Below, piece by piece: positions 23,484 through 63,073 of a DNA stretch of 64,000 nucleotides. The notes under the pieces were generated by a model, which ran no database searches, had not been told where the DNA came from, and worked only from the letters and a program-made list of their open reading frames with translations. The position numbers were made by a program, and so were the translations under genes. Positions within the stretch are counted from its first letter, which is position 1, and each line of letters starts with the position of its first letter. The stretch comes from Candidatus Bathyarchaeota archaeon (GTDB lineage: Archaea > Thermoproteota > Bathyarchaeia > 40CM-2-53-6 > RBG-13-38-9), in assembly GCA_963807605.1 (NCBI GenBank), contig CAWECG010000001.1:320001-384000 (forward strand), written 5' to 3'.

Positions 23484-23580
23484 AGATGTTCTAGAGCGCT
23501 ATCATGTGATAAAAATCTGCGTAGTTTTCCTTCTTACACTACATGGTAAGGAATAAGCTTGTAGTCTCCGAATAGCGCGC

Positions 23581-24706
23581 TAGCCTCTTGCAATATTCTT
23601 GGGCTTAACATGAAGATGTATACGTGTTTTTGATCATAAGATCGATGAGCTTTACACCCGCTCATGCCGTTTCTGGTGAAAAAGGAGTGAGCGAGTGTAA
23701 GGCTCTGTATGATCTGTTTCAGGCTTTGGATTTAACGTTTGTAGAACAAGTCTTGGAAAGAAGCTATGGGAGAAGAAGCAGGGTCGGCAGACCCCATAGA
23801 AATTTACTTGGAATGTTCAAAGCAGAGCTCATCAAACGGCTAAGACGCATAGAAAGCTACGAGGAACTATACCGACTTCTATGGAGTGACGGTGAACTCT
23901 GCAGACTCTGCGACATCAAGGAGACCGAGAACCCGTATCACCCATCAATACTTCTGAGGTTTCGACGTAGAATAGGCCCTCAAGGATTTCACCGCCTCAT
24001 GAACCGTCTGATCAAACAGCTCGACCATACAGGTGTCTTGGACAGTGAAACCCTAGCTTTGGATGCGACGTTCATCAAAGCTTACAGTCGAAGAGATCCT
24101 CACAATACCCAGTGTGGATTATCTGATTCTGAAGCCAGATTACGAAAACAAGGTAGAAACGTGATCTTAGGCTACGGTATACACCTAGCTGTAGACACCG
24201 CCAGCGAGATGCCGGTGGCAGTCACAGTGGAGCCTGCAAACGTCAACGAAAAGAAGATCGCATCCCACCTACTCCATAAAACCTTGAAGTACAAACATAG
24301 GTGGAAGAGCGTGACTGCAGACTCACAATACTCCAGCGAATCCTTCAGGGATAAGGCAAGATCCATAAGTGTTGAGCCTGTCATCCCCTACCCCAAGAAC
24401 CAGATGAAAGGCAAAAGAGTTCTACGTGTTGACAGAAGATTCCACACCCACGGACCTGCAAGGCTGAGACGTCTCTACCGAAAACGATCCTCTGTTGAGA
24501 GAACCGTCTCACGATTGAAGACACACTTCGGACTGTGCCAACTTAGAACCCGAGGATTAAGAAACGTCCTGTCACATGTAGTCCTATGCTTGATCGCAAT
24601 GTTGACGGCTGCTCTATCAGCGATCAAACAAGGATACACCCACAGAATGCGGTCACCAGTCCAACTCATGAAATTGACAGGACTAAAGTAATATTGCAAG
24701 AGGCTG
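23581..24706 (+). mobile_element. IS copy 1 (1126 bp, IS4/IS5-superfamily DDE), 17-bp TIRs, GCGCGC target duplication
   Basis: TAGCCTCTTGCAATATT ... AATATTGCAAGAGGCTG flanked by GCGCGC at 23575 and 24707. Confidence 0.92.
23624..24691 (+). CDS. DDE transposase
   Basis: ALDAT / TADSQY / YRKRSSVER catalytic motifs. Confidence 0.92.
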   Translation: MFLIIRSMSFTPAHAVSGEKGVSECKALYDLFQALDLTFVEQVLERSYGRRSRVGRPHRNLLGMFKAELIKRLRRIESYEELYRLLWSDGELCRLCDIKETENPYHPSILLRFRRRIGPQGFHRLMNRLIKQLDHTGVLDSETLALDATFIKAYSRRDPHNTQCGLSDSEARLRKQGRNVILGYGIHLAVDTASEMPVAVTVEPANVNEKKIASHLLHKTLKYKHRWKSVTADSQYSSESFRDKARSISVEPVIPYPKNQMKGKRVLRVDRRFHTHGPARLRRLYRKRSSVERTVSRLKTHFGLCQLRTRGLRNVLSHVVLCLIAMLTAALSAIKQGYTHRMRSPVQLMKLTGLK

Positions 24707-24736
24707 GCGCGCCATGCAATTTGGGGGGCGTTTAAG

Positions 24737-31902: not shown

Positions 31903-32145
31903 TGTGTGCTCACCAAGGGACACCACCACACAGAAAAATGACGGTTCAAATTCGCCTGCTCGCACCAATGAAAACACATACAAGTGCTGAAACGAGAGTT
32001 CAATTTCCAGAGCTCGCACCAGTAGTACCACACACAAAGAAATTGTTAGAACGACGGTTCAAATTCAGGCGCTCGCACCATTGATGCCACACACACCACA
32101 TTTTTCGACCGAACGACGACGGCTCAAGTTCACTCGTCTACACCA
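31903..32145 (+). repeat. Tandem array of four tRNA-3'-end-like 27-bp repeats preceded by a core site
   Basis: Units at 31941, 31995, 32054, 32119: GGTTCAAAT-N12-ACCA, period 54-65 bp. Confidence 0.8.
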
Positions 32146-37514: not shown

Positions 37515-37920
37515 GGTCATGTTTTGTATGCTATAGTTTGTTTCCTTTGCGCGATTTGCAGCTGGTTTTGTATTAGTTTTGTTTGTCTTTCTTGGGGGCA
37601 TGTCTTTACTACTGTTTATATTCCGTACAGGATTTTCTACTGGTTTTGTTTTCTTATTGATTGTAATGTTTAGGTAAGCTTGCTAGTGTGTTTTGTATTG
37701 TAGGTTTTCTGTTTGCTGTATATGGGGGTTGGTTATGCTATACCTTGTTTCTTCTTCCTGTGAGCTAGGGTAAACTAAAAACCCTGTAAACTATACATAA
37801 CATAAACCATAGAAACCATAACCCACTAACCTTCCACCTGCCGCAAACTGGCCAAACTGTTGCAGATATGCTCTGGCGGCATAGGGAGCACACTATTATG
37901 GTGGTGCTAACCGGCTAAGG
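37515..37920 (+). repeat. Non-coding skewed element copy A (homologous to 51380-51810)
   Basis: T/G-rich then A/C-rich; shared AAACYATACATAACATAAACCAYAGAAACCA block; ends in a degenerate core site. Confidence 0.75.
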
Positions 37921-37922
37921 TT

Positions 37923-38348
37923 CTATGAGGGTGTTTCAAGTTTCGTTCTTATGCTCTTTGCCAGATCAATTAGGAATTGTCTATCAAAGAAATCCTGCTT
38001 TATTGCTTCGTCTAGGAGTTGCAGCAGAGCGTTCTTTCCTATCATAGGAGCAAATTGACCGTATTTCTCCTTCCCCCCTATCTTCACCCAGTATGGAAAC
38101 CAAAACTCGTTCTTGTCTGAGGACGGGGAAATTTCCCACTCTAGCTGTACGATCGTAGGCATGAACTCAACTTCTCCTGCTTGTTTGCTATGACAGAGCA
38201 CTGGCTGTTTCAGCTTGGCAACCTTCTTGACGCAATAATTACCCCAGTATCTCGCTTTCCTTCTCTGCCCCTCAATTATCACTACAATCACCGCGCAGCT
38301 GATGCGATTCTCGACAGAGAAAAATGTTGTTAGGGGAAGTGTATTCAA
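37923..38348 (-). CDS. Hypothetical protein (start uncertain) between two core sites
   Basis: ORF with FWFPYW..KYGQFAP; stop abuts the core site at 37901-37920. Confidence 0.55.
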   Translation of the reverse strand: MNTLPLTTFFSVENRISCAVIVVIIEGQRRKARYWGNYCVKKVAKLKQPVLCHSKQAGEVEFMPTIVQLEWEISPSSDKNEFWFPYWVKIGGKEKYGQFAPMIGKNALLQLLDEAIKQDFFDRQFLIDLAKSIRTKLETPS

Positions 38349-38352
38349 TCCT

Positions 38353-38451
38353 GCGTGCGTAGCGAGCAGTTATCATTGGTGGTGGTGGGTGGTGTGTCCC
38401 TTGGTGAGAGCATCCGAAATTGAACCGTTAGGCTCTACTTTTAGCGCGCGC
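38353..38451 (-). repeat. Composite site: GCGTGCGTAGCGAGC + (GGT)n + tRNA-like core + GCGCGCGC
   Basis: Closely matches 51732-51806. Confidence 0.8.
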
Positions 38452-39470: not shown

Positions 39471-39520
39471 ACCCAGTAACCGGATGAAATAAACGCTAAC
39501 CCCTCATCTCTCTCGCGCGC

Positions 39521-40646
39521 GAGCTTCTTGCAATATTATATTTTCTGTGTTAATTTTGTGAACTGGATTGGTGACCGCATTTTATCGATGTGTCCGTGCT
39601 TGATCGCGGATAAGGCAGTTGCCAGTAGAGCCAGCAGACAGAGAAGTACATGTGATATGACGTTTCTTAGGCCGCGTGTTCGAAGCTGAGACAATCCGAA
39701 GTGTGTCTTGAGTCTTGAGAATGTTCTCTCCACTGAGGATCGACGTTTATACAGTTGTTTCAGACGGGCAGGTCCGTGTGAGCGGAACTTCCGGTCGATT
39801 CGTAGAACCTGTTTGCCCTTCATCTGGTTTCTAGGGTAAGGTATGATTGGTTCTATGCCCATAGATCTTGCCTTGTCTCTGAAAGCTTCGCTGGAGTATT
39901 GTGAGTCTGCAGTCATGCTCTTCCACCTATGTTTCTTCTTCAATGCTTTATGGAGGAGGTGGGGTGCAACTTTTTTCTCATTTACATTTGCAGGTTCTAT
40001 GGTGACTGCCCGCGGCATCTCGCTGATGGTGTCTACAGCAAGGTGTATGCCGTAGCCTAAGATCACGTTTCTACCTTGTTTTCGTAATCTGGCTTCAGAA
40101 TCGGATAATCCACACTGGGTATTGTGAGGATCTCTTCGACTGTAAGCTTTGATGAATGTGACGTCTAACGCTAGGATTTCAGAGTCCAGAATGTCCATGT
40201 GGTCAAGCTGTTTGATCAGACGGTTCATGAGGCGGTGAAATCCTTGAGGGCCTATTCTACGTCGAAACCTCAGAAGTATTGATGGGTGATATGGATTCTC
40301 TGATTCCTTGATGTCGCAGAGTTTGCAGAGTTCACCGTCGCTCCATAGAAGTCGGTATAGTTCCTCGTAGCTTTCTATGTGTCTTAGCCGTTTGACAAGC
40401 TCTGCTTTGAACATTCCAAGTAAATTTCTATGGGGTCTGCCGACGCTGCTTCTTCTTCCATAGCTTCTTTCTAAGACTTGTTCTACAAACGTTAAATCCA
40501 AAGCCTGAAACAGATCATACAGAGCCTTACACTCGCTCACTTCTTTTTCACCAGAAACGGCATGAGTGGGTGTAAAGCTCATCGATCTTATGATCAAAAA
40601 CACGTATACATCTTCATGTTAAGCCCAAGAATATTGCAAGAGGCTA
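39521..40646 (-). mobile_element. IS copy 2 (1126 bp), GCGCGC target duplication
   Basis: Same TIRs; GCGCGC at 39515 and 40647; transposase 39536..40603. Confidence 0.92.
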
Positions 40647-40688
40647 GCGCGCGATTACAGATATTTCATTGTGAAAATTGAATCCGCG

Positions 40689-41604: not shown

Positions 41605-41994
41605 ACCAATCAACATCTCCAGACCTGACTACAGCTCAATAGTAGAGATGATTGCCCGGCAAATGGTCCTGCGCCCAGATATTGAAAGCAAAATGGGGGC
41701 ATGGGACATGATCCGAGACAAAAAACCAGCTCACACTCTGGATCTTACGGTCAAGCTGAAAACACAAGTGAATATCTGGGAAATGAATGCAACCTGGATA
41801 ATGGACGGCAAAGACAATCTGAGGAGAAGCGAGCCTAAAATATCAAAATTGTCGCCATAATCAAAAACATAGCCCGAGCTCCATATCCAGAAATTATTCT
41901 CAGAAAAGGACATAATTACGGCTAGTCATGTCCCCAAAAAGACATCACAGACTGTTCAATGTGTTCAGGAGTCTACACAGAACCAAGCGCTATT

Positions 41995-42831
41995 TCAGAT
42001 TCCTTTTAGGGCCAGGACTTCTTTGGCAGGTTTTCTATCTTTGTTGCAGCTGATCAATCGCGGAGCATCCAAGAAACGCAGTTCATATCCCAAGTCCTCG
42101 TAGAGTTTGCATATTCTTGGGGTTGCCTGATTGGAGAGTACAACCGGGCCGGAATGCTCTGTCAACCAATTTGCCAGGCGCACCTGATCGTCCCAGGAGA
42201 ACCCTTCCTTAGAGTACTGGGTAAATATCACATCATAAGGCGGATCCGCATACACAAAATCATCTCGAGAAAGTGAGACCTTCTCGAAATCTCCGGTTGT
42301 AAACTCCCATTCTTGGAAAACCCGTTTGTACGGGGTAAAGTCGTGTGCGTAGTTGATCTTTTGGTATCGACCAAAGGGAACATTAAATTCCCCTGACCGG
42401 TTAAACCGGCAAAGCCCATTATAGCAGGTCCTATTAAGATAATAGAATAACTCAGCCGCTTCTTTGCTGCTGGCTTTTCCAGTCTTTACAAGTTGATTGA
42501 ATCGTCTTCGATGCTGATAGTAGAGTTTTCTATTGTTAGCCAGGGGTATGTCTGTTACAAGGCCCTTCTTGAGCCTTTGAAAGAAGTTTATGGCGTGATT
42601 GTTGATGTCATTAAGAAGAGCCTGAGCAGGCATTAGGCCTAGAACAACAGCAAGACCCCCACACAGCGGCTCAACAAGCCTACGGTCTCTGTAAGGCTCC
42701 CAGATTGGTCTCAGATAAGGAACAAGCCATCTCTTTCCACCAGCCCACTTCAACGGGGGTCTAAGCGATACACTCTCGTAATGGGAACGGTGTGAGGTCT
42801 GGCTCAAGCTTGACTCCATTACGATTGACAC
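41995..42831 (-). CDS. Dam/D12-class N6-adenine DNA methyltransferase (orphan copy)
   Basis: LKWAGGK, YNGLCRFN..GEFNVPFG, DPPY. Confidence 0.92.
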   Translation of the reverse strand: MSIVMESSLSQTSHRSHYESVSLRPPLKWAGGKRWLVPYLRPIWEPYRDRRLVEPLCGGLAVVLGLMPAQALLNDINNHAINFFQRLKKGLVTDIPLANNRKLYYQHRRRFNQLVKTGKASSKEAAELFYYLNRTCYNGLCRFNRSGEFNVPFGRYQKINYAHDFTPYKRVFQEWEFTTGDFEKVSLSRDDFVYADPPYDVIFTQYSKEGFSWDDQVRLANWLTEHSGPVVLSNQATPRICKLYEDLGYELRFLDAPRLISCNKDRKPAKEVLALKGI

Positions 42832-42931
42832 ATCAGCCAGAGATAAAGCACGCTGGCTTTAGCACCTCACCTTAGATTGCACAAGCAGAGAATCGAGTAC
42901 AATTCCAGGTGCTCTCACCAGTCAGAGCCAC

Positions 42932-44945: not shown

Positions 44946-45193
44946 TCATTTAGGGACGACGAATGCTAATAAGACCTTGGAGGCTGCTTTGACCAAGTGC
45001 GCGCACCGTGATACTAGAGGTAAGTAGAAGCGCGCGCTTACGTATGACATTTTTCAAATCTATTGCAACCTAGAACGTATGTTGTTTGCTTCCGTTCTAT
45101 GATTCATCAGGGTGAAGCGAACTCGGCGCTACACTCCGCGGGGAATCTATATTTGGAAGTAGGACTAGGGCTACCGTAGTTCAACTCGGGCTT

Positions 45194-45754: not shown

Positions 45755-46621
45755 ATGAAACATGTGGTTAAATTCCAAGTCTTAACTGAAAGGCAGGAGT
45801 CGAGATTGCGTCAAACCTTAGGTATAACTCGTTTCGACACTACTGTTTCACTTAGACCCCCGCTTAAATGGGCTGGTGGTAAGAGATGGCTTGTTCCTCA
45901 CCTCAGGCCAATTTGGGAACCTCATAGAAATCGTCGGCTCGTTGAACCTCTGTGCGGCGGGCTTGCTGTTACCTTGGGCTTGATGCCTACTAGCGCTCTT
46001 CTTAATGACATCAACAATCACGCCATAAACTTCTTTCAAAGGCTCAAGAAGGGACTTGTGATAACCGTTCCCATGGAGAATAATCAAAAACTCTACTATC
46101 AGCATCGAAAACGATTTAATGAGCTTATCAAGACTGGCAGAGCTAACAGTCAAGAATCTGCCGAGTTATTTTATTATCTTAATAGAACTTGTTACAATGG
46201 ACTATGTCGTTTCAACCGGTCTGGAGAATTTAACGTACCTTTTGGACGGTACAAGAAAATCAATTACGTACGCGATTTCACCCCCTATAAACAAGTTTTC
46301 AAGGAATGGCTGTTCACAACAGGAGATTTCGAGGATGTCTCTTTAGATCCGAATGATTTTGTGTACGCAGACCCACCTTACGATGTGGAATTCACCCAAT
46401 ACTCCAAAGAAGGATTCTCATGGGAGGACCAAGTGCGTCTGGCTAAGTGGCTCACAAAACATTCTGGCCCAGTTGTACTTTCCAATCAAGCCACTCAGAG
46501 GATATGTGGACTGTATGGTGAGTTGGGGTACAGCTTGCGTTTCTTGAACGCGCCTCGAATGATTAGTTGTAAGGGAGATAGAACTCCCGCTAGGGAAGTC
46601 TTGGCTCTGAGAGGTATTTGA
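45755..46621 (+). CDS. Dam/D12-class N6-adenine DNA methyltransferase
   Basis: Same motifs; roughly 80% identical to 41995..42831. Confidence 0.92.
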   Translation: MKHVVKFQVLTERQESRLRQTLGITRFDTTVSLRPPLKWAGGKRWLVPHLRPIWEPHRNRRLVEPLCGGLAVTLGLMPTSALLNDINNHAINFFQRLKKGLVITVPMENNQKLYYQHRKRFNELIKTGRANSQESAELFYYLNRTCYNGLCRFNRSGEFNVPFGRYKKINYVRDFTPYKQVFKEWLFTTGDFEDVSLDPNDFVYADPPYDVEFTQYSKEGFSWEDQVRLAKWLTKHSGPVVLSNQATQRICGLYGELGYSLRFLNAPRMISCKGDRTPAREVLALRGI

Positions 46622-46794
46622 AATATGTCTCCTCGTGACCCAGGGACTGAGAGTGTGTTAGAAAAAAGATGCTTTCAGGTGAAGGCCCCTAGAGTCATAA
46701 GTTGCGTGGGTACTGGATGTGGCATGATTTCGGAGTTTGTTATTGGTAACTATTTGACACCAAAAGCCAAGCACAATCCATTGGTTGACATTGG

Positions 46795-48081
46795 TTGATG
46801 AAGATGCCTCGAAAGGTCGAGAAGTGGGCAGACATAGTCCGACAGCTTGGGCTAGACATATCAAAACCAGTCAATCCCGTGACTGCGAAACAAATCAAGG
46901 AAATCACTCACGAAGAACCTAGGCTCATGGCTAAGATGGATACTATAGAAAGCCTTCCATCGATTTTCAGAGAGAATGGGCTTTTCTTACTACCCGCAAG
47001 CAGAACCGAGTATTTAATTGTGAAAGGCAAAGGCTACCACAAGTTAGAAGATTTGCCCACCAATGTCTTGGTACATGAGACTCGTTATCTCTTTCCGTCA
47101 TCTGCATTAGGTGTTCAAAGCGAGGGAATTTACCTTGATTATGCGTACTCTTCTGGGTTGATAGGAAAGATCAGCGGTGGCGGCAACCTGATACTCGCGT
47201 TCCGCGGGAGAAGAACGACTCCAAGATTCAGTTTCAATGTAAGCGAACAGGTCATTAGGGTCGATGGGGCGCAAATCGAGGTAGATGGCGCATATGAGAG
47301 TTCTGAAGAAGTTGTGCTGGTGGAATCCAAACTCGGTATCCCCAGCTCGTTCAATATCCGACAGCTTTACTATCCCTACAGGACGTTTAACGATAGAAAA
47401 CATCCAAGGAACTTTTTCTTCTGTTTCGAGCAGATCCGAAATGAGTACTTGTTTTGGGAGTATGATTTTAGACCACATACGAGTTTCGAGTCTATCGAAC
47501 TTTTGCGCGCGTTAAGATGTCAAGTGAAAGTAACAAATCCCGTTACTGCGGATGATTACAGGGATGTAATGCCTGCCAGAAAAATCATCCCGCCTCAGGC
47601 CGACTCCGTCGATAAGATAATTGAGCTTCCATTCAGAATTTCCGAAGGATACGACACATCTGAGAAGATGACAAGAGCCTTTGGATTTGTTCAACGACAG
47701 AGTTCGTATTACCGACAAGCCGCTGAATTGTTGGGACTGGTGGAGTCAAAAGATGACAGGTACGCGCTCACTGACTCGGGAGAGCGCTATATCAAGTTGC
47801 TGCCAGAAGAAAGGAACAACTACATCTGCCGCCTGCTACTCAAGTTTCCCATTATGAATGATATATTCCTCCAATTATCTATCAAACGGGGCAGCCATGT
47901 CACCAAGCAGAAAATTATAGAGATCATTAGGGAACGTTCACAGTTGACGGGCACGACCCTCACAAGACGTGCCCAGACGATTATCTCGTGGTTTAAGTGG
48001 ATAAGAAACAATTTAGGAATCGTTGAAGTCGACAGAAAAGGCAATGTTTGGATCTCGAAGCAATTACCACAGTCTCAATGA
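46795..48081 (+). CDS. Probable type II restriction endonuclease partner of the methylase
   Basis: EPRLMAKMD, QIEVDGAYE...VESK, FNIRQLYYPYR, C-terminal winged helix (RQSSYYRQAA). Confidence 0.75.
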   Translation: MMKMPRKVEKWADIVRQLGLDISKPVNPVTAKQIKEITHEEPRLMAKMDTIESLPSIFRENGLFLLPASRTEYLIVKGKGYHKLEDLPTNVLVHETRYLFPSSALGVQSEGIYLDYAYSSGLIGKISGGGNLILAFRGRRTTPRFSFNVSEQVIRVDGAQIEVDGAYESSEEVVLVESKLGIPSSFNIRQLYYPYRTFNDRKHPRNFFFCFEQIRNEYLFWEYDFRPHTSFESIELLRALRCQVKVTNPVTADDYRDVMPARKIIPPQADSVDKIIELPFRISEGYDTSEKMTRAFGFVQRQSSYYRQAAELLGLVESKDDRYALTDSGERYIKLLPEERNNYICRLLLKFPIMNDIFLQLSIKRGSHVTKQKIIEIIRERSQLTGTTLTRRAQTIISWFKWIRNNLGIVEVDRKGNVWISKQLPQSQ

Positions 48082-48290
48082 AATAACGCCCTTATGGTAT
48101 AGGAAGTCTCAGACTCGGGCAGTCCATCGTGTCAGCTCTGAGGAAGTGGTTGAATGAAATCCCTCCACATCGCATTCGCGGTCTCTAGCGGCTGTATGTG
48201 CTCACCATGTATCGCACACATAATAGATATGGCTCGCTGTCACTCATCTCACCCGAAATGATCCATTAGAAACCTACTTGGGGTCGCGGT

Positions 48291-48821
48291 ATGACGAATC
48301 TTGACGACGGCAGAAGATCCACTGAGTTAGAGATCAAGTTTCAATCGGACAAGTGGTCAAAGAGATGGACAAAAATTGGACGCGTTATTTTCGGGTACAT
48401 GCCCGATCGGTCATTTGAGTATTGGTCTGAAGCCACCTTTTGCTACGTTCACGGTCTCTTTAATGGGTGCATAATACTTTCAGGTATGGCCATCGAAACA
48501 GCCCTTAAGCAGGTTCTTGAAAAAAAAGGGAAGAAATTGAGACACTTCTCCCGCATGGAAATACTGGCCAAACAGATGAATTTAGTGAGTAGAGAATCTC
48601 TGGAGAGAATCAGTTGGATTAGAGAATGCAGAAATATGTATGTTCACTCTGACATTGGGCAAATTATCAAGAATATTGAGGGGCTTGTTGAAATTCCCAA
48701 GAGAGCTTTGGAGACACCTGAACAAAGTTGGGCGATTGCATCTCTGGAAGCAGAGGATACCGCATACAGAGCGCTATCAAAGGCAAAGGAAGTTCTTCTG
48801 GAAATGTTTCCTCCGAAGTAG
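48291..48821 (+). CDS. HEPN/DUF4145-like protein
   Basis: EA..C...G...AIE..L and RNMYVH (Rx4H). Confidence 0.65.
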   Translation: MTNLDDGRRSTELEIKFQSDKWSKRWTKIGRVIFGYMPDRSFEYWSEATFCYVHGLFNGCIILSGMAIETALKQVLEKKGKKLRHFSRMEILAKQMNLVSRESLERISWIRECRNMYVHSDIGQIIKNIEGLVEIPKRALETPEQSWAIASLEAEDTAYRALSKAKEVLLEMFPPK

Positions 48822-48893
48822 GTTCTTAAGATCACTCTCTATTACATGGGTTTCCTCGTCGCTCACCAGCTATGGCTCACATCAACTAGCGAA

Positions 48894-50093
48894 CTAAACG
48901 ATCTTTGAAATATGGCTCATGCTCCACACATCTCCTTGCGGAAACCGAGAATCCAGAAACCTTCTGATATTCGGATCTGCCTCGTCCTTGTCGATCCGTG
49001 CGTAGAAGGATTGAAGGGTTATGCCTTTGTCTTCGAACGCTTTCCAAGCATAAGTAAAGTACAACATGCTTTGGAAGGTGCTTGAGTTGACGTGTTCTTT
49101 TAGAGGGGGCAATGCTTTGTCTTTGTCTGCTAAGAACTTAGTGCAAGCCTCGTGACCCTCGTGAAAAAGCAGATTGGAAACATCTATCGCTAGGATGTTG
49201 CTTGCAGTTTTGTACTTGAAATCTGTCTTCTCGTCTATTGCGCGGATTACCTTGTACACAACTTGGCTTGGCTCGGTAGTGTTTTGTAGGCTCAAATGTG
49301 CGCTTGTGCATTCAATCTCAGTGCTTTGTAAGTCGGTGAGAATAAAATCCGGAGTCTCTGCTTTGCGAAATGCAGTGTTACTAGAGATTAGCGAGGCGGC
49401 AATCCTAATCTCTAGACGAAGCCCGTAATAGTTGTCAACGGAAGTGCGCCGCAATTCTTTCTTGAAATGTTTGAACAAATCGATTTTCCTTTTCCGGACG
49501 ACTTCGAGATCTTCGATCGCGAATTTTACGTAAGCGGCTTCAGCGGAACCGAGTAGCCTATTGCTACTGTAATTCTGCTCAGCAGAAATCAGGTGACTGA
49601 CTAGTGGATGGGCAGTATCTTTCAGTGTTAGCCCTGTTTGCGTCTTAAGCTGATCGAGTAATTTTTGGAGATTTCTCTTGAACGCTGCCTCGCTTTCGGC
49701 TGTTGCAGTTCGTAAGGGGCTGTTCACGTCGGTTCCTGTTGCCGTTTGCGATCTGGTCGGGTTTTCCGCGTCAACTACACCTAGCCCAATTGTCTCTGGA
49801 GACCATATCAAAGTGATCCTCAGCGCAGCACTTCCAACAAAGTGACTTAATTCTATTGTAGCCACACGTGTTCCGTACTTGGAGGAAGAATGGATGAGGT
49901 GTAGACGCGATTTCGAGTCTCGGACTAGCTTTAAGAGGACACTATCTGAGATTGCTTGGACCAACACACCGGAAGGAATACTGGTGTCGAATAGTTCTGG
50001 AGATCTGTATCGAAACTCAATTGTCCCTTCAGGAAGACGCAGAGCTTCCTTCGCTTGTTCAATTTGATCTTTATTGAGATCAGGAAGAAACAT
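48894..50093 (-). CDS. Hypothetical protein with C-terminal PD-(D/E)xK-like domain
   Basis: LEIRIAASL...TPDF...EIECTS. Confidence 0.55.
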   Translation of the reverse strand: MFLPDLNKDQIEQAKEALRLPEGTIEFRYRSPELFDTSIPSGVLVQAISDSVLLKLVRDSKSRLHLIHSSSKYGTRVATIELSHFVGSAALRITLIWSPETIGLGVVDAENPTRSQTATGTDVNSPLRTATAESEAAFKRNLQKLLDQLKTQTGLTLKDTAHPLVSHLISAEQNYSSNRLLGSAEAAYVKFAIEDLEVVRKRKIDLFKHFKKELRRTSVDNYYGLRLEIRIAASLISSNTAFRKAETPDFILTDLQSTEIECTSAHLSLQNTTEPSQVVYKVIRAIDEKTDFKYKTASNILAIDVSNLLFHEGHEACTKFLADKDKALPPLKEHVNSSTFQSMLYFTYAWKAFEDKGITLQSFYARIDKDEADPNIRRFLDSRFPQGDVWSMSHISKIV

Positions 50094-50227
50094 AGACCTT
50101 CCCGCGAGGCGCCACCTTTCTCATCTAACAACCGTGTCTCATTCATTTTGTGGTGGAGGTGCTCACCAAGGGACACATAGCGAAGAACCTAAGGGAATCC
50201 GGCAATGCCGTCATAACATCCAGCCTA

Positions 50228-51151
50228 CTAGTCAAGTAACCTAGTCAGTTTCTGAAGGCTGAACTTCAGATTTAGGTCCTCCAAGGATTTCTTTCTTTCT
50301 CTAAGGTTTTCTTTTGGCTGAACTTTCTCAATCCAGTCAGCCAAAATGTTCAATTCGACAACTATTCCTATGTCAATTATATTATGTAGAATTCTCAGTA
50401 GCTCATCAAGTTCCGCATAAATGATGTTAGTCTTGAAGAGATTATTTTCCTGTAGAAGCCTTCTACCGATATCAGTCCTATCAGGAATTACATGAACGTC
50501 CTTAGATAGTTTGTTGTACAAACCTGCATACACGACCTGGTATGCTTCGGGGATGTCTATAATCTTCCAGTCTATCAATTGCTTAATGAGCACAGAGAAT
50601 GCTGGCATCCGTATGTATTCTCTCTGAAAATCTGCGTCTTCAAAAAGCACCGATGTTTTGTCAAAGATTGATGCGGATGTCTCTTCTAGATCTTTCACTA
50701 TTGATGGATCTCTTGCTATCAGATCTTCTATCCAATTCTTTACCGATTTACGGTTATGCTTGTCTGAGTCTTGCTCAATTATGCCAGCATTGTCTCTAAA
50801 CCTCTTGTGTGCCAAGCACTCCCAGAAAGCCCCTCTTACCAATAGCTCCAGCGTATTCCTGGAGAGACTATATGCGGAATTGTAGAAACCAGCGAGTCCT
50901 TCCAGAAGTGCTCTATGAGCCGAGTTAAAAGTTTCCCAATGATAAAGGAGAAAGGCAGACTTTTGCTTCCAAGATGCCTCTTTTGGGTATGAAAGCGAAG
51001 CCAAAAGCATAAACTCATGGATAGAGTCATGAGTTTTGACTGTTTCTGGATACGCTATTTTCAGGGATTCTAGTATGTTTAATATTTCAAGCTCTTTGAG
51101 AGTGTAATAGAATGTGTTGCTTATCTCTTCTCCACGTTCCGAACCCGTCAA
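50228..51151 (-). CDS. Hypothetical helical protein, HEPN-like
   Basis: GFYNSAYSLSRNTLE and YNKLSKDVH. Confidence 0.55.
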   Translation of the reverse strand: MTGSERGEEISNTFYYTLKELEILNILESLKIAYPETVKTHDSIHEFMLLASLSYPKEASWKQKSAFLLYHWETFNSAHRALLEGLAGFYNSAYSLSRNTLELLVRGAFWECLAHKRFRDNAGIIEQDSDKHNRKSVKNWIEDLIARDPSIVKDLEETSASIFDKTSVLFEDADFQREYIRMPAFSVLIKQLIDWKIIDIPEAYQVVYAGLYNKLSKDVHVIPDRTDIGRRLLQENNLFKTNIIYAELDELLRILHNIIDIGIVVELNILADWIEKVQPKENLRERKKSLEDLNLKFSLQKLTRLLD

Positions 51152-51379
51152 TGATAGTCATTATTCTCTAGATGCTAATCACATATATCGGCTTTTGCAG
51201 TTCTACGCACGCGTAGTAAGAGTAGCCAGAGTTTATCAACAGTTGTACGGGTTAAGAGAACAAGTTAGCTTATACGAACTCTTCTCCGGTATCCTTGCCT
51301 TAATCATCCTGGGTCTGTTTCCGTTAGTAAAGTAATTATACAACTCATGGTTCTGCTATGCGAAAACTGTTAACATCCT

Positions 51380-51872
51380 CCATATTTTGTATGTTGCAGT
51401 TTATTGTTTGTTACTTTCTATGCTGCTTACTGCCAGTTTTGTATTAGTTTTAATTGTTTTTTAGGTCAAGTTATGTCTTTCTTTATGTCTTTGTTTGTTT
51501 TGTTCTAAGTTGGTTTGTATTGTTTAGGTTCAAGTTTCCCAGCATGTTTGGTATTGTGGATTTTCCGGTTTTTCCATGTGTTGATTTAGGTTTGAAATAA
51601 GGCATTGTCTATTCCTGTATTGTATGGTAAACCAAAAACCCCGCAAACCATACATAACATAAACCACAGAAACCAGGAACCGGTAAACTTCCAACTATCA
51701 CTGCTATACCATGCTGCTGCTGGTATGTTCTGCGAGCGTAGCGAGCAGTTATTTTGGTGGTGGTGGTGGTGTGTCCCTTGGTGAGAGCATCGTGATTTGA
51801 ACCGTTAGAGCAGACTATTTTTTTGTGTGTGTGTGCCATAGCTGGTGAGCACCACCACCACCACCACCACCA
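51380..51872 (+). repeat. Non-coding skewed element copy B plus composite sites, (GGT)5 and (CAC)7 tracts
   Basis: Homology to 37515-37920 and 38353-38429. Confidence 0.8.
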
Positions 51873-51929
51873 AGGAAAGGCGCGGAACACTAAGACAAAA
51901 CCCCTCACATCCCGCCTCTAATGGGGAAG

Positions 51930-52175
51930 CCTTCGTGCTTTCAGATCTTTTGCATACTGGAATCTTACTGTATCCGCTGTTCAAGATTGTGTTGAGGATA
52001 CGCGTATGGGCTCAGCGACTGGGATTACGCAAGGCATAGCAACTATGAGTGGAGCAGCAGCACCTACTGTTTCAGGTTTCATGATAACAAATTACGGCTT
52101 TAATTTGGCGTTAATCTTGTCGATAGCTTTGCCTGAGCTGATTTACGTTGCTCTAGCTTGGAAAGCTACACAATG
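51930..52175 (+). pseudogene. MFS transporter C-terminal fragment
   Basis: RMGSATGITQGIATMSGAAAPTVSGFMITNYG. Confidence 0.6.
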
Positions 52176-52189
52176 AGTGCGTGTGCGCA

Positions 52190-52858
52190 TTATTCTTTCG
52201 GATACCCAACTGCTTGAGCAAAAACGATTGGTTGATCTTCCCCCAGTTTCAAGCTGTCTTTCAGTGAAGCTCGGTCAATGTTAGCATAGAAGTGGGCGCC
52301 TAGCCCTTCGGAGGCGCAGTACAGGTACACATTCTGGCCGATAAACCCCGTGTGAGCGGCAGAATAAAGCTCCTTCTGGGACTGAGGAATCATTCCAAAT
52401 TTGGCGTAGTCCGCAACAAAGAGTAGATGTACCGGCGCTTCTTTCAAAAATTCCTCATTCGTCGCCTTTGTCCGAAGGTCTTCAGCCAGCACGGGTGTTA
52501 GCTGATTCCCTTTCGCATCATACAGATAAACCCCTTCAGGGAGGAGGACATAAATGTCAATCGCTTGAGTATTCATGGCTGTTGGAGCAGTACGCTTACC
52601 TGAATCCTGACGATTAATACCCCACGCTGCCCATAGCAGATCCAGAAGTTTTTCATTGGACAGTGGTTGCGGTTGAAACGCGTTTGTTGACTTTCTGTTT
52701 CTTAATGCTTCCGATAAGGTAGCAACCTTGGCTACCTGTCCGGAGGGCTGCCCATAGTATTGGTAAGCTTCATATCCAGCAATGGCTACAGCGCCTGCAG
52801 CAACAGCAGCGCCAGCATATTTCAGATACTTGCGACGACTAATCTTACGCTCACTCAA
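52190..52858 (-). CDS. SagB/nitroreductase family protein with Tat signal
   Basis: SRRKYLK, RKS, LLWAAWG, RTAPTA, QNVYL. Confidence 0.88.
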   Translation of the reverse strand: MSERKISRRKYLKYAGAAVAAGAVAIAGYEAYQYYGQPSGQVAKVATLSEALRNRKSTNAFQPQPLSNEKLLDLLWAAWGINRQDSGKRTAPTAMNTQAIDIYVLLPEGVYLYDAKGNQLTPVLAEDLRTKATNEEFLKEAPVHLLFVADYAKFGMIPQSQKELYSAAHTGFIGQNVYLYCASEGLGAHFYANIDRASLKDSLKLGEDQPIVFAQAVGYPKE

Positions 52859-53034
52859 TTAACATAACCTCATGTCTGGTTAGTCCATCTCTGGGGCTTA
52901 TTTAGCTTGATTGAATTCTTCTGGTTTCAGCTTAGGATGGGTTCTCTTTTCTATTCTTCCCATGATACTTCTATTTGGGGGGGCTTTCTTCGCTCCCAGT
53001 GGCTAGCGGAGCGTATTCCAGCTTCTTCTCGCCG

Positions 53035-53117
53035 GCGAGCGTAGCGAGCCATTAGATTATGTTGTGTGTGTGTGTGTGTGTGTGTGTGTGCTCACCAAGG
53101 GACACGATGCGCGCGCG
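53035..53117 (+). repeat. Composite site: GCGAGCGTAGCGAGC + (TG)14 + GTGTGCTCACCAAGGGACAC + GCGCGCGCG
   Basis: Direct reading. Confidence 0.85.
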
Positions 53118-60134: not shown

Positions 60135-60220
60135 TGTGTGTGTGCCTTATCTGGTGAGAGCATCCGGATTTGAACCTTTAGAGCAGGTTAATTTTCTTGT
60201 GATGCTGGAAAATAGCGCGC
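60135..60220 (-). repeat. tRNA-like core site followed by GCGCGC
   Basis: Minus strand GGTTCAAAT-ccggatgctctc-ACCAGATAAGGCACAC. Confidence 0.8.
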
Positions 60221-61123: not shown

Positions 61124-61541
61124 AGTTTACCTGCGTCAATGGTTTAGGTGAAAATCTGACGGCATGCTTGACGCAGTATTTCTTAAGCTCTCTACCATTA
61201 AGCCTGTTTTCAAACCTGTTCAGCTTAACCCACAGGTGATTCAAAGTTTCAAGCCGGAAGTGCTTTCTTGAGAAATTCCAGATTTTCCCCCTAAACATCA
61301 TTTTCCTGTAGAACGCCCGGATCTCTGAAGTCTGCACTTCCAGCTCAGACCATCATGGATCCTTCCTCGAATAAGAAACAGAGAGGAGAATGAATGTCCA
61401 GAGAGGGAAAAGTGTACGTCTACTCTCAGCTGGCGGTTTGACGGTCAAAACTGCTGGATGCTAGGTGTTCAAGCGGCCATTCTTAGGGCATTTGCAAATC
61501 GAGGATGTCGGCGAGGTTGTAATGCCAACAAGTAAGCGCGC

Positions 61542-62667
61542 TAGCCTCTTGCAATATTCTTGGGCTTAACATGAAGATGTATACGTGTTTTTGATCATAA
61601 GATCGATGAGCTTTACACCCACTCATGCCGTTTCTGGTGAAAAAGAAGTGAGCGAGTGTAAGGCTCTGTATGATCTGTTTCAGGCTTTGGATTTAACGTT
61701 TGTAGAACAAGTCTTAGAAAGAAGCTATGGAAGAAGAAGCAGCGTCGGCAGACCCCATAGAAATTTACTTGGAATGTTCAAAGCAGAGCTTGTCAAACGG
61801 CTAAGACACATAGAAAGCTACGAGGAACTATACCGACTTCTATGGAGCGACGGTGAACTCTGCAAACTCTGCGACATCAAGGAATCAGAGAATCCATATC
61901 ACCCATCAATACTTCTGAGGTTTCGACGTAGAATAGGCCCTCAAGGATTTCACCGCCTCATGAACCGTCTGATCAAACAGCTTGACCACATGGACATTCT
62001 GGACTCTGAAATCCTAGCGTTAGACGTCACATTCATCAAAGCTTACAGTCGAAGAGATCCTCACAATACCCAGTGTGGATTATCCGATTCTGAAGCCAGA
62101 TTACGAAAACAAGGTAGAAACGTGATCTTAGGCTACGGCATACACCTTGCTGTAGACACCATCAGCGAGATGCCGCGGGCAGTCACCATAGAACCTGCAA
62201 ATGTAAATGAGAAAAAAGTTGCACCCCACCTCCTCCATAAAGCATTGAAGAAGAAACATAGGTGGAAGAGCATGACTGCAGACTCACAATACTCCAGCGA
62301 AGCTTTCAGAGACAAGGCAAGATCTATGGGCATAGAACCAATCATACCTTACCCTAGAAACCAGATGAAGGGCAAACAGGTTCTACGAATCGACCGGAAG
62401 TTCCGCTCACACGGACCTGCCCGTCTGAAACAACTGTATAAACGTCGATCCTCAGTGGAGAGAACATTCTCAAGACTCAAGACACACTTCGGATTGTCTC
62501 AGCTTCGAACACGCGGCCTAAGAAACGTCATATCACATGTACTTCTCTGTCTGCTGGCTCTACTGGCAACTGCCTTATCCGCGATCAAGCACGGACACAT
62601 CGATAAAATGCGGTCACCAATCCAGTTCACAAAATTAACACAGAAAATATAATATTGCAAGAAGCTC
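61542..62667 (+). mobile_element. IS copy 3 (1126 bp); transposase 61585..62652 identical in protein to copy 2
   Basis: TIRs; flanks GCGCGC / ACGCGC. Confidence 0.92.
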
Positions 62668-62673
62668 ACGCGC

Positions 62674-63073
62674 GTTCGCTTCGGATTTTCGTGGTGCATT
62701 GTTCAGAGGAGAACATCATGGTTTCTATTTGAGCGATATCTGGGTGTGGCTTCGTAGGCCACTCGAAGAAACTTGTCTCTTTGAGGAAGGCTCCCATCAA
62801 CATAATGCCCATCAGGAAGAGTATTACATTGAAGCTTGCAAACCAAGGAATTTTTCTTATTCAGTATGTTTGCGCCTACGAGTAGAACGGTGAGGGCAAG
62901 GACGAAGAAAAGTCTGAAACGTCAGAATGGTATGGTACCATAGACGATAGATAGAAGGCTGCGGTCGCAACCGCCTGGAGTACGTAGCCCAAGCAGTGAT
63001 AGCAGAGCGCGAGGCACCATGAGGAAAACGAATGTTGCCGCAGCTCTCCTTTCGGTCGAGGTCTTCGACAACA
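62674..63073 (-). pseudogene. Degraded ArsB/NhaD/SLC13-type permease N-terminus, interrupted by the IS
   Basis: FNVILFLMGIMLMGAFLKETSFFEW in a shifted frame. Confidence 0.5.

What the first reader, a model, noticed from the sequence alone, without database searches (positions are those of the whole stretch)
48194..51806. Three consecutive single-gene defence-like cassettes, each delimited by a core site
Seen: site 48194, HEPN-like ORF, site 48858, PD-(D/E)xK-like ORF, site 50150, HEPN-like ORF, then the skewed element and site 51771. The first three sites are directly oriented, so recombination between neighbours would excise exactly one gene. The block follows a dam/REase pair. Inference: a stockpile of exchangeable, possibly undescribed antiviral genes, organised like an integron array.
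Basis: partly seen in the sequence, partly recalled or inferred. Interest (0 to 1): 0.8.

Follow-up and report, generated by a model that had tools for sequence, protein, structure and literature searches.

The report
Defence-like genes between casposon landing sites
Three small nuclease-type genes that look like antiviral weapons each sit between copies of a 14-base landing site used by Cas1-driven jumping elements (casposons) in an uncultured Bathyarchaeia archaeon; the row looks like an integron but was most likely built by CRISPR-like insertion chemistry.

Summary
Three co-oriented core sites (cores 48201-48214, 48862-48875, 50161-50174) and a fourth, inverted one (51772-51785) each bound exactly one substantial ORF, downstream of a dam/type II REase pair.

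The sites are not integron attC sites. They belong to a genome-wide family of about 76 sites and 42 tRNA-3'-end-like "pads". Each site is CTCACCA plus 7 nt, flanked by simple-repeat element tips. The same 14-mer is perfectly duplicated around an 8,980-bp element elsewhere in the genome. That element encodes a family-2-type casposase (best PDB match 6OPM) and carries DitA/SIR2 defence cargo.

The ORF2 cassette recurs in at least three other independent places. Its homology breaks exactly at such sites, in both orientations relative to the site, and the tips differ between copies.

- ORF1 is a HEPN/DUF4145 protein with an R-N-x3-H motif.
- ORF2 has a LamG-like domain plus a restriction-endonuclease-like domain.
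- ORF3 is HEPN-like, and its homologues sit inside R-M operons in other phyla.

None of the three matches a known defence system, and neighbouring cassettes carry metabolic genes. The sites flanking each of the three cassettes are not matched duplications, so their individual histories are unresolved.

The scan has reported the same casposon-scar arrays before, elsewhere in this genome and in other Bathyarchaeia.

The parts
45755..46621 (+). dam-type N6-adenine DNA methyltransferase, part of the R-M module that ends at site 1
   Evidence: Pfam MethyltransfD12 1.7e-41, TIGR00571 6e-55, PADLOC MTase
46795..48081 (+). Type II restriction endonuclease (DUF6996/DUF6997/DUF7226)
   Evidence: PADLOC REase_II 5.1e-39 over the full length
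48193..48220 (+). Site 1: degenerate (TG)n right tip of the R-M module, 14-bp core 48201-48214, then (CA)3 left tip of cassette 1
   Evidence: passes the genome-wide site grammar
48215..48861 (+). Cassette 1: left tip, a subterminal motif like other element ends (about 48229-48250), ORF1, and a TCG-type right tip
   Evidence: the motif shares 10 identical bases with the consensus subterminal motif seen at about 10 other element ends
48291..48821 (+). ORF1, 176 aa, HEPN (DUF4145-type) predicted RNase
   Evidence: DUF4145 in 18 of 27 family members. Invariant E69, N115, H119 and near-invariant R114, giving R-N-x3-H. No PADLOC hit.
48853..48887 (+). Site 2: core 48862-48875 between the right tip of cassette 1 and the decayed left tip of cassette 2
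   Evidence: cassette 2 loses homology to L008/L009/L010 just inside this point
48894..50093 (-). ORF2, 399 aa: N-terminal LamG-like beta-sandwich, helical linker, C-terminal restriction-endonuclease-like domain
   Evidence: AF2 pLDDT 81. VIA: 3pve Z 8.6 for residues 1-120; BsmI Z 7.9, CdiA-CT Z 7.2 and NucC Z 6.2 for residues about 150-390. Invariant E228, D249, E261, K289. No Pfam, PADLOC or PHROG hit.
50149..50179 (+). Site 3: (GGT)-like right tip of cassette 2, core 50161-50174, then short CAC-type tip
   Evidence: (family D6)
50228..51151 (-). ORF3, 307 aa, all-helical, HEPN-like fold; member of a widespread family embedded in R-M operons
   Evidence: AF2 pLDDT 91. VIA top hits are HEPN domains: 3o10 Z 9.0, 1ufb Z 8.5, 4nqf Z 8.4. 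Atlas suggests DUF5677/DUF6988-like. Homologues sit between hsdM and hsdS or beside Eco57I-type, HsdR or OLD genes. GC 40% against 46% for the window.
51244..51729 (-). Skewed non-coding end module of about 430-490 nt that follows the subterminal motif of this element type
   Evidence: Copies at C1:418427-418829 (71%), window 37643-38413, C1:394979-395093 and G087 C216. No fold signal, z 0.5 and 0.0.
51730..51771 (-). Subterminal motif (51730-51752) plus (CAC/ACC)n left tip of the minus-oriented element that holds ORF3
   Evidence: repeat families D7 and D17
51772..51803 (-). Site 4 (core 51772-51785, identical to site 3 but inverted) with its tRNA-3'-end-like pad (51786-51803)
   Evidence: the pad has the same 25-nt spacing as real tRNA 3' ends of this genome
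51804..51849 (-). Spacer and (CA)5 tip of the pad unit, then site 5 (51836-51849, identical to site 2 but inverted). This is where the minus-oriented array anchored at pad 60158 meets the finding.

Best explanation
The three 'cassettes' are Cas1-less cargo modules, either mini-casposons or pieces of larger ones, lying in a mosaic of stacked casposon insertions.

The 'core site' is the 14-bp unit (CTCACCA plus 7 nt) that a family-2-type casposase duplicates when it integrates an element beside a tRNA-3'-end-like leader ('pad'). The short simple repeats on either side of each site are element termini: (CA)n, (CAC)n or (CGA)n on one side and their complements on the other.

Element ends themselves carry pad-plus-site units, so new elements land in the ends of old ones. 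This produces site-gene-site rows in both orientations. The enzyme would act in trans from an autonomous element such as the 8,980-bp one on contig 3.

The cargo here is three nuclease-type genes (HEPN RNase; LamG plus REase-like nuclease; R-M-associated HEPN-like protein). They most likely serve in virus or plasmid defence or as addiction toxins.

Shown:
- the site family and its flanking grammar;
- a 14-bp TSD around a casposase-bearing element;
- the ORF2 module bounded by sites in independent loci and in both orientations;
- the protein folds and motifs.

Inferred:
- that a casposase moved these particular three modules;
- that the modules are still mobile;
- that the genes defend the cell.
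For: 1. Site family. About 76 sites pass the strict grammar and 42 pads match, against 0 for the reversed-pattern control. Pads occur only in this taxonomic family: 9 of 15 genomes, against 0 of 15 in other families of the order.

2. Link to Cas1. The element at C3:796447-805413 has a pad, a perfect 14-bp direct duplication of the same site type, and (CGA)5/(TCG)4 tips. It encodes a 402-aa Cas1 matching the M. mazei casposase 6OPM at 5.7e-72 over its full length. It has no PolB and no tyrosine integrase.

3. Agreement with published casposons. The 14-bp length, the tRNA-3'-end position and the need for an upstream leader match family-2 casposons (PMC6614799, PMC4779613). Only the last 5 nt of the casposon 3' end matter for integration (PMC6614799 abstract), which fits the very short tips.

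4. Younger neighbours in the same window. The sites at 60158 (with pad), 56001 and 51849 differ by 1 nt from each neighbour and bracket elements of 4.13 and 4.15 kb with clean tips.

5. The ORF2 module. Its 77-79% nucleotide homology to L008, L009 and L010 stops within about 35 nt of a site at both ends in every locus. A remnant in G311 also abuts a site. The orientation relative to the pad-site is opposite in L008. Seven of 13 ORF2-family loci have such sites adjacent.

6. Defence flavour of the cargo.
- ORF1 has the HEPN motif.
- ORF2 has a REase-like fold, and a short ORF2 homologue lies beside a type I R-M system in L015.
- ORF3 homologues sit inside R-M or OLD loci in 6 of 7 loci tested.
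- The autonomous Cas1 element itself carries DitA (1.3e-75) and SIR2 (5.8e-29).
- An R-M pair lies directly upstream.
Against: - The sites flanking each of the three cassettes are not identical. Sites 1 and 2 agree at 11 of 14 positions and sites 2 and 3 at 8 of 14, so none is a demonstrable single insertion with its own TSD.
- None of the three + strand sites has a pad.
- The tips of cassettes 1-3 are short, degenerate and of mixed type.
- Cassette 3 has both tips against the variable side of convergent sites, which a simple insertion does not give.
- Across the genome, neighbouring sites are direct and inverted equally often (20 and 20), and matched neighbours are only weakly enriched: 6 of 20 against about 3.5 expected.
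- Within the family, the presence of Cas1 and of pads does not clearly correlate. For example, G146 has 21 pads and no Cas1 hit, though these are fragmented MAGs.
- ORF3 homologues in 23 other genomes have no such sites.
- No PADLOC model hits any of the three ORFs.
- ORF3's HEPN match (Z up to 9) is below the caution level for helical bundles, and no Rx4-6H motif is evident.
Confidence: 0.6

Rival explanations
1. An integron-like platform. A site-specific recombinase exchanges single-gene cassettes by conservative recombination within the conserved CTCACCA core, and neighbouring direct sites allow excision of one gene as a circle.
For: Three co-oriented sites, one gene per interval, and different variable halves at successive sites, which crossover in the conserved half would allow. 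Two of the five tyrosine integrases in the genome lie beside pad-like sites elsewhere. Integrase elements sharing a casposon tRNA target are known (PMC4779613).
Against: No tyrosine recombinase is detected in the window. There are no attC-type structured sites. Gene orientation is mixed. The ORF2 module occurs in both orientations relative to the pad-site. The variable half of a site does not travel with the DNA on its 3' side: sites 2 and 5 are identical but have different neighbours. The only autonomous element with this site type uses Cas1.
Confidence: 0.1
2. The simple-repeat tips and perhaps the joints are written de novo at DNA ends by a separate end-processing or end-joining system, the primase-plus-RNA 'telomerase-like' idea raised by earlier notes for GC joints in this genome. 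On this view cassettes are captured by joining, and casposase is only one of several users of the sites.
For: Homologous ORF2 cores carry different tip repeat units in different loci: CA, CGA, CAC or none. A bare (CGA)3 lies between two head-to-head sites in L009 and L010. GC-alternating joints sit at several module borders in this window, at about 45000-45040, 53106-53115 and 38430. The 3' ends of the elements are G/T-rich, as in telomeres.
Against: Not tested here. Clean TSDs and tips around the Cas1 element are explained fully by ordinary casposition. Tip differences could also come from slippage and decay at 77-79% overall divergence.
Confidence: 0.15
3. An invertible switch. The nested, inverted, identical site pairs (48862 with 51836-51849, and 50161 with 51772-51785) let the ORF2/ORF3 segment flip, giving phase-variable expression of defence genes.
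For: Both pairs are 14 of 14 identical and nested. ORF3 and ORF2 are co-directional behind the skewed end module.
Against: The two variable parts are the two commonest in the genome, 11 of 76 and about 12 of 76 sites, so identity by chance is about 2% per double pair and there are many possible pairings. No invertase is nearby. No read-level evidence could be examined.
Confidence: 0.05
4. The sites are inert dispersed repeats or old scars (REP/MITE-like) that merely happen to lie between genes. The three genes are an ordinary, immobile part of a genomic island.
For: The tips are degenerate and the flanks unmatched. None of the three cassettes has a paralogue in the genome, and no DNA-level match was found in 30 relatives.
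Against: The ORF2 module's homology breakpoints coincide with sites in three other independent loci plus one remnant, where the background density is about one site per 35 kb. The sites have a strict flanking grammar.
Confidence: 0.1

Closest known systems
Family-2 casposons (Aciduliprofundum boonei AciBoo-C1; Methanosarcina mazei MetMaz elements, casposase PDB 6OPM)
   Same: The Cas1-family integrase in this genome matches 6OPM at 5.7e-72 over its full length. The target duplication is 14 bp. The target overlaps a tRNA-type 3' end and has an upstream leader-like motif. Short terminal sequences are sufficient (PMC6614799, PMC4779613).
   Different: There is no PolB in the autonomous element. 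The inverted ends are reduced to simple repeats of about 6-20 nt plus a short subterminal motif. The target is a pseudo-tRNA end carried on element termini, not a real tRNA gene. There are many small Cas1-less single-gene units. The three cassettes studied here lack Cas1, a matched TSD and a pad.
Tandem casposon arrays sharing a TSD (Methanosarcina sp. 2.H.T.1A.3 and 2.H.A.1B.4; Krupovic et al. 2016, PMC4779613)
   Same: The same target is used repeatedly, so elements are separated only by a copy of the 14-bp site. Solo ends occur next to conserved site starts. That paper reports a conserved CGCA start, which the related metagenomic loci here also show.
   Different: The published arrays hold two full-size, Cas1/PolB-bearing casposons. 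Here there are rows of many 0.65-4 kb enzyme-less units in both orientations, nested in each other's ends.
Integrons (IntI, attI, attC cassettes)
   Same: A row of mostly single-gene, promoter-poor accessory modules separated by a recurring short site, with exchangeable cargo that includes defence-type genes.
   Different: There is no IntI-type recombinase, no attC hairpin sites and no uniform orientation. The sites are duplications made by insertion, not recombination products.
CRISPR arrays (Cas1-Cas2 spacer integration at the leader-proximal repeat)
   Same: Cas1-family chemistry. A leader-like pad directs insertion, and the target unit is duplicated at each event. The series 60158, 56001, 51849 behaves like leader-proximal stacking.
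   Different: The 'spacers' are 0.05-9 kb elements with genes. There is no Cas2, no effector and no evidence that the array is transcribed as a guide.
HEPN and PD-(D/E)xK stand-alone defence or toxin proteins, and genes embedded in R-M operons
   Same: ORF1 has the Rx4-6H HEPN signature. ORF2's C-terminal domain resembles REase, NucC and CdiA-CT nuclease folds. The ORF3 family sits between hsdM and hsdS, as many Abi/HEPN genes do.
   Different: None matches a PADLOC model. No partner antitoxin or sensor gene lies within the cassettes. Activity is untested.

Membership tests
Casposon (the three cassettes as casposons) | Encodes a Cas1-family casposase | tested here: not met
   No Cas1 lies in 48.2-51.8 kb. 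The only Cas1 signal in the window is a weak remnant at about 20.6 kb (19 bits). Full genes are on contig 3. At best the cassettes are non-autonomous derivatives.
Casposon (the three cassettes as casposons) | Flanked by a direct target-site duplication (14-15 bp in family 2) | tested here: not met
   Flanking cores agree at 11 of 14 (cassette 1) and 8 of 14 (cassette 2). For cassette 3 they are identical but inverted. The feature is met for the reference element on C3 (14 of 14) and for the 4.1-kb neighbours in the window (13 of 14).
Casposon (the three cassettes as casposons) | Terminal inverted repeats | tested here: inconclusive
   Every cassette starts with a CAC-type end and finishes with a GTG- or TCG-type end. 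The repeat units of the two ends differ and are degenerate. In the reference element the TIR is only 12 nt of (CGA)n.
Casposon family 2 (the site system as a whole) | Target at a tRNA 3' end with an upstream leader motif required for integration | tested here: inconclusive
   The pad plus the first 7 nt of the site reproduce the 25-nt layout of real tRNA 3' ends in this genome. No real tRNA is present. The requirement for the pad cannot be tested in silico.
Casposon family 2 (the site system as a whole) | Casposase with C-terminal HTH, related to the M. mazei and A. boonei enzymes | tested here: met
   The 402-aa Cas1 of the C3 element aligns to 6OPM residues 21-407 at E 5.7e-72. Pfam Cas_Cas1 2.7e-49.
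Casposon (self-synthesising) | Family B DNA polymerase in the element | tested here: not met
   No PolB domain was found in any of the 10 ORFs of the 8,980-bp element. Six ORFs remain unassigned.
Integron | IntI-type tyrosine recombinase next to the array | tested here: not met
   PF00589 gives 5 hits in the genome and none in the window.
Integron | attC sites (imperfect palindromes of about 60-140 bp) and uniform cassette orientation | tested here: not met
   The sites are 14 bp plus simple repeats. ORF1 is on the + strand and ORF2/ORF3 on the - strand. The ORF2 module is found in both orientations relative to the pad-site.
HEPN superfamily (ORF1) | Rx4-6H catalytic motif in a helical domain | tested here: met
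   R114-N115-x3-H119 is conserved in the 27-member alignment (N115 and H119 invariant, R114 in at least 90%). DUF4145 matches 18 of 27 members, and HEPN or HEPN_Apea match 2 each. The structure was not predicted.
HEPN superfamily (ORF3) | HEPN four-helix fold with the Rx4-6H motif | tested here: inconclusive
   HEPN domains take ranks 1-3 and many more of the top 30 (Z 9.0-6.9), covering residues 63-271. This is below the tool's caution level for helical proteins. Conserved R98, E102 and H220 do not form a canonical motif. Foldseek found nothing.
PD-(D/E)xK nuclease superfamily (ORF2 C-terminal domain) | Restriction-endonuclease-like alpha/beta core with D...(D/E)xK residues | tested here: inconclusive
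   VIA: BsmI Z 7.9, PA4535 Z 7.5, CdiA-CT Z 7.2, NucC Z 6.2. Invariant E228, D249, E261 and K289, but E261 is followed by C-T rather than x-K. Foldseek found nothing.
Known anti-phage defence systems (PADLOC-DB 2.0) | Match to a system protein model | tested here: not met
   No hit at E up to 0.1 for ORF1, ORF2 or ORF3. The dam/REase neighbours and the cargo of the C3 element do hit.

The most novel reading that the evidence does not exclude
Bathyarchaeia of this family use a PolB-less, family-2-type casposase as a gene-capture machine. Element ends carry their own pseudo-tRNA 'leader plus repeat', so any DNA given short simple-repeat tips, possibly written anew at each move, is stacked into arrays of single-gene cassettes, many of them undescribed defence nucleases. 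That would be a living intermediate between a transposon, an integron and a CRISPR array.
Probability: 0.3. Interest if true: 0.85.

Novelty: new variant of a known kind. Interest (0 to 1): 0.62.

Why it matters
Casposons are thought to be the ancestors of the CRISPR adaptation machinery. So far they are known as rare, large, self-replicating elements that sit singly or in pairs.

Rows of small enzyme-less gene cassettes separated by copies of the casposase target, with leader-like pads carried on the elements themselves, would show that Cas1 chemistry can build repeat-insert-repeat arrays of cargo genes. That is one concrete route from transposon to CRISPR array.

It would also be a second, non-integron way for archaea to stockpile and exchange accessory genes. 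It further flags three uncharacterised nuclease-type families as candidate archaeal defence genes, above all the widespread ORF3 family embedded in R-M operons.

Tried and rejected
- **Real tRNA or known RNA at the sites:** ARAGORN and Rfam found none in the window. No tRNA of the genome has this acceptor end.
- **Structured RNA in the skewed element:** fold z-scores were 0.5 and 0.0. Rejected as shown, not excluded.
- **Foldseek against the PDB for ORF2 and ORF3:** nothing at E up to 0.001. Only the VIA wide search gave leads.
- **ORF3 against the DUF5677/DitA protein of the Cas1 element:** hhalign probability 0.1, so they are unrelated.
- **Viral contigs for ORF2:** no relative found. The ORF1 alignment was too divergent to scan.
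- **PHROGs:** nothing useful.
- **Flanks of ORF3 homologues:** no sites in 23 loci, so ORF3 is not intrinsically tied to the sites.
- **Co-occurrence of Cas1 and pads in 30 relatives:** inconclusive, because the MAGs are fragmented and CRISPR Cas1 is included.
- **Single insertion history:** I tried leader-proximal stacking, nested insertion into element-borne pads, block inversion between the inverted identical sites, and one 2.9-kb element spanning 50175-53082. None reproduces all junction orientations.
- **Empty-site comparison with the same-genus genome:** not possible. None of the three cassettes has a DNA-level match in 30 relatives.

Full report
**Setting.** The window is G000:C1:320001-384000 of a 2.65-Mb, five-contig genome. 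Earlier notes of this scan assign it to Bathyarchaeia.

**1. The observation**

The sequence at 48194, 48858, 50150 and 51771 is as described. The pattern (core, 9 free bases, CACA) occurs 14 times in the window at up to 2 mismatches, against 4.8 +/- 2.3 in shuffles, and no shuffle reached 14.

- The three left-hand sites are on the + strand, with cores at 48201-48214, 48862-48875 and 50161-50174.
- The fourth (51772-51785) is on the - strand, and a fifth (51836-51849) lies just beyond it.
- Each interval has one long ORF.
- The preceding genes are a dam methylase and a type II restriction enzyme.

**2. What the sites are**

Each site is CTCACCA followed by 5-7 variable bases. A (TG)n, (GGT)n or (TCG)n run lies on its 5' side, and a (CA)n, (CAC)n or (CGA)n run on its 3' side.

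About half of the sites are preceded by a motif that copies the layout of a tRNA 3' end: T-loop, 5 nt, 7-nt acceptor strand, ACCA. Real tRNA genes of this genome have exactly this 25-nt spacing and encode CCA. Even so, there is no tRNA at any site.

Genome-wide, about 76 sites pass a strict flanking grammar. There are 42 pads, against 0 for the reversed-pattern control. Pads are confined to this taxonomic family: 9 of 15 genomes, and 0 of 15 genomes from other families of the order. The window is one of a few hot spots, holding 12 of the 76 sites.

**3. Link to Cas1**

On contig 3 an 8,980-bp element is bounded by a pad, a perfect 14-bp direct duplication of this site type, and (CGA)5/(TCG)4 ends.

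- It encodes a 402-aa Cas1 that matches the Methanosarcina mazei casposase 6OPM over its whole length at E 5.7e-72.
- It has no PolB and no tyrosine integrase.
- Its cargo is defence-type: PADLOC DitA 1.3e-75, SIR2 5.8e-29, and an ATPase_2/HTH protein.

Published family-2 casposons share several of these features. They make 14-15-bp duplications at tRNA 3' ends, need a leader motif upstream of the duplicated segment, and need only the last five 3' residues of the element end (PMC6614799). They can also stack in tandem separated by a shared duplication, with solo ends left behind (PMC4779613).

In the right half of the window the same logic is visible. Pad and site at 60158(-), then 56001(-), then 51849(-) differ by one base from each neighbour. 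They bracket units of 4.13 and 4.15 kb with clean tips and metabolic cargo: protease, MBL, SDR, amidohydrolase, nitroreductase.

**4. Are the three cassettes discrete mobile modules?**

*ORF2: yes.* Metagenomic loci L008, L009 and L010 carry a 76-79% identical gene.

- The nucleotide homology to the window begins about 70 nt upstream of the start codon and ends about 30 nt after the stop.
- In every locus a site with tips lies directly outside both breakpoints.
- The flanks beyond the sites are unrelated.
- The tips differ between loci: CA-type, CGA-type, CAC-type or none.
- In L008 the pad-site faces the start-proximal end. In L010 it faces the stop-proximal end, and in the window the stop-proximal end likewise faces the 3' side of a site that has no pad. 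The module therefore inserts in either orientation.
- A truncated remnant in G311, a different family of the order, again abuts a site.
- A 45%-identical homologue in L011 lies between two pad-sites and a stack of pad units.

*ORF3: no evidence.* Its homologues (38-55% identity) in 23 genomes of many phyla are not flanked by sites. The gene was therefore captured here rather than being tied to the system.

**5. What does not fit a simple story**

- The sites on either side of cassettes 1 and 2 are different: 11 of 14 and 8 of 14 positions agree.
- The + strand sites have no pad, and their tips are degenerate.
- Cassette 3 lies between two identical but convergent sites.
- Sites 2 and 5, and sites 3 and 4, form nested inverted identical pairs. 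Their variable parts are the two commonest in the genome, so chance identity is not negligible.
- Genome-wide, neighbouring sites are direct and inverted equally often (20:20), and matched direct neighbours are only mildly enriched.
- Pad units (tip, spacer, pad) are regularly flanked by different site types. The site after a pad therefore belongs to the pad unit and is not a duplication of the site before it.

The best reading is that element ends carry their own pad-plus-site. Later elements land there in either orientation, splitting earlier ones. The 48.2-51.8 kb stretch would then be the older, decayed zone where a + oriented and a - oriented series meet. I could not reconstruct a unique history.

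**6. The skewed element**

The region 51244-51729 is a recurrent end module. It follows the tip and a conserved subterminal motif at several element ends:

- C1:418427-418829 (71%);
- window 37643-38413;
- C1:394979-395093;
- G087 C216.

It shows no fold signal. In two of three copies it lies upstream of co-directional cargo. Its role is open; it could be a promoter or leader, or an expanded and degenerated tip.

**7. The proteins**

*ORF1 (176 aa).* DUF4145 matches 18 of 27 family members. E69, N115 and H119 are invariant and R114 is nearly so, giving the HEPN R-N-x3-H signature. The family is small: 31 relatives at E up to 1e-3 among 1.8 billion representatives.

*ORF2 (399 aa, model pLDDT 81).*
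- An N-terminal LamG-like sandwich (3pve Z 8.6).
- A helical linker.
- A C-terminal alpha/beta domain resembling BsmI (Z 7.9), CdiA-CT (Z 7.2) and NucC (Z 6.2), with invariant E228, D249, E261 and K289.
- A short homologue lies next to a type I R-M system in L015.

*ORF3 (307 aa, pLDDT 91).*
- It is all-helical, and HEPN domains head the structural hit list at Z 9.0-8.4. This is below the caution level for helical folds, and no canonical motif is present.
- The Atlas suggests a DUF5677/DUF6988-like protein.
- Homologues lie between hsdM and hsdS (L047, L054), beside Eco57I/MmeI-type enzymes (L043, L049), beside HsdR (L059), or beside an OLD-type ATPase-TOPRIM (L057). That is 6 of 7 loci tested.
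- Some members are fused to RusA.

None of the three matches PADLOC, NCBIfam or PHROG models. None has DNA-level matches in 30 related genomes. ORF3 has 40% GC, against 46% for the window.

"Defence-like" is therefore a reasonable but untested label. The array as a whole is not defence-specific.

**8. Verdict**

The integron analogy holds for the look of the locus but not for its mechanism.

The most likely mechanism is casposase-mediated stacking of Cas1-less cargo units at pseudo-tRNA landing sites (confidence about 0.6). Tip rewriting and the unmatched or inverted flanks remain unexplained.

This is a new variant of a known kind (casposons). The same phenomenon has already been reported by this scan at other places in this genome and in other Bathyarchaeia genomes. 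My tests agree with those notes on the site anatomy and on the Cas1 element.

New for this locus:
- the ORF2-module breakpoint and orientation evidence;
- the characterisation of the three proteins;
- the R-M context of the ORF3 family.

Noticed in passing
L047:3001-3936, L054:3001-3903, L043, L049, L057, L059 (ORF3 homologues): The ORF3 family (about 305 aa, all-helical, no Pfam) is an uncharacterised gene embedded in R-M operons across bacteria and archaea. It lies between hsdM and hsdS, or beside Eco57I/MmeI-type, HsdR or OLD genes. Some members are fused to RusA (PF05866).
   Followed up: partly
G000:C3:796447-805413 (L065): The autonomous 8,980-bp Cas1 element has no PolB. It carries PADLOC DitA, SIR2 and an ATPase_2/HTH gene, plus six ORFs with no family hit.
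   Followed up: partly
window 52743-52872: A segment of about 117 nt at the start of the nitroreductase gene and just upstream recurs at 73-88% identity on many contigs of more than 10 related genomes. Its nature is unknown.
   Followed up: no
window 41991-42772 and 45844-46625: Two dam methylase genes, 77% alike and in inverted orientation, flank the conserved queT-queC pair. A degenerate pad lies at 42896-42920.
   Followed up: no
G000:C1:288226-288994 and G000:C2:55947-57421: Two of the five tyrosine integrases of the genome lie beside pad-like sites. At the first of them, and at two other sites in the genome (C1:397019, C4:85334), the site is followed by a different, GGGGATAT-type element end. 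This suggests a second kind of element sharing the same landing site.
   Followed up: no
window 31903-32145 and L011:3210-3450: Mini-arrays of 3-4 tandem pad units (tip, spacer, pad, site; period about 54-59 nt) occur both here and in a distant metagenomic lineage. Each unit has a different site variant.
   Followed up: partly
window 44996-45040, 53106-53115, 38430-38440: Alternating-GC joints sit at borders of modules next to or in place of element tips, as earlier notes of this scan describe genome-wide.
   Followed up: no
window 39514-40652 and 61536-62674 (also 23571-24712): IS copies with a DDE_Tnp_1 transposase. Two copies are 100% identical and inverted, 20.9 kb apart, bracketing the whole region studied.
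   Followed up: no
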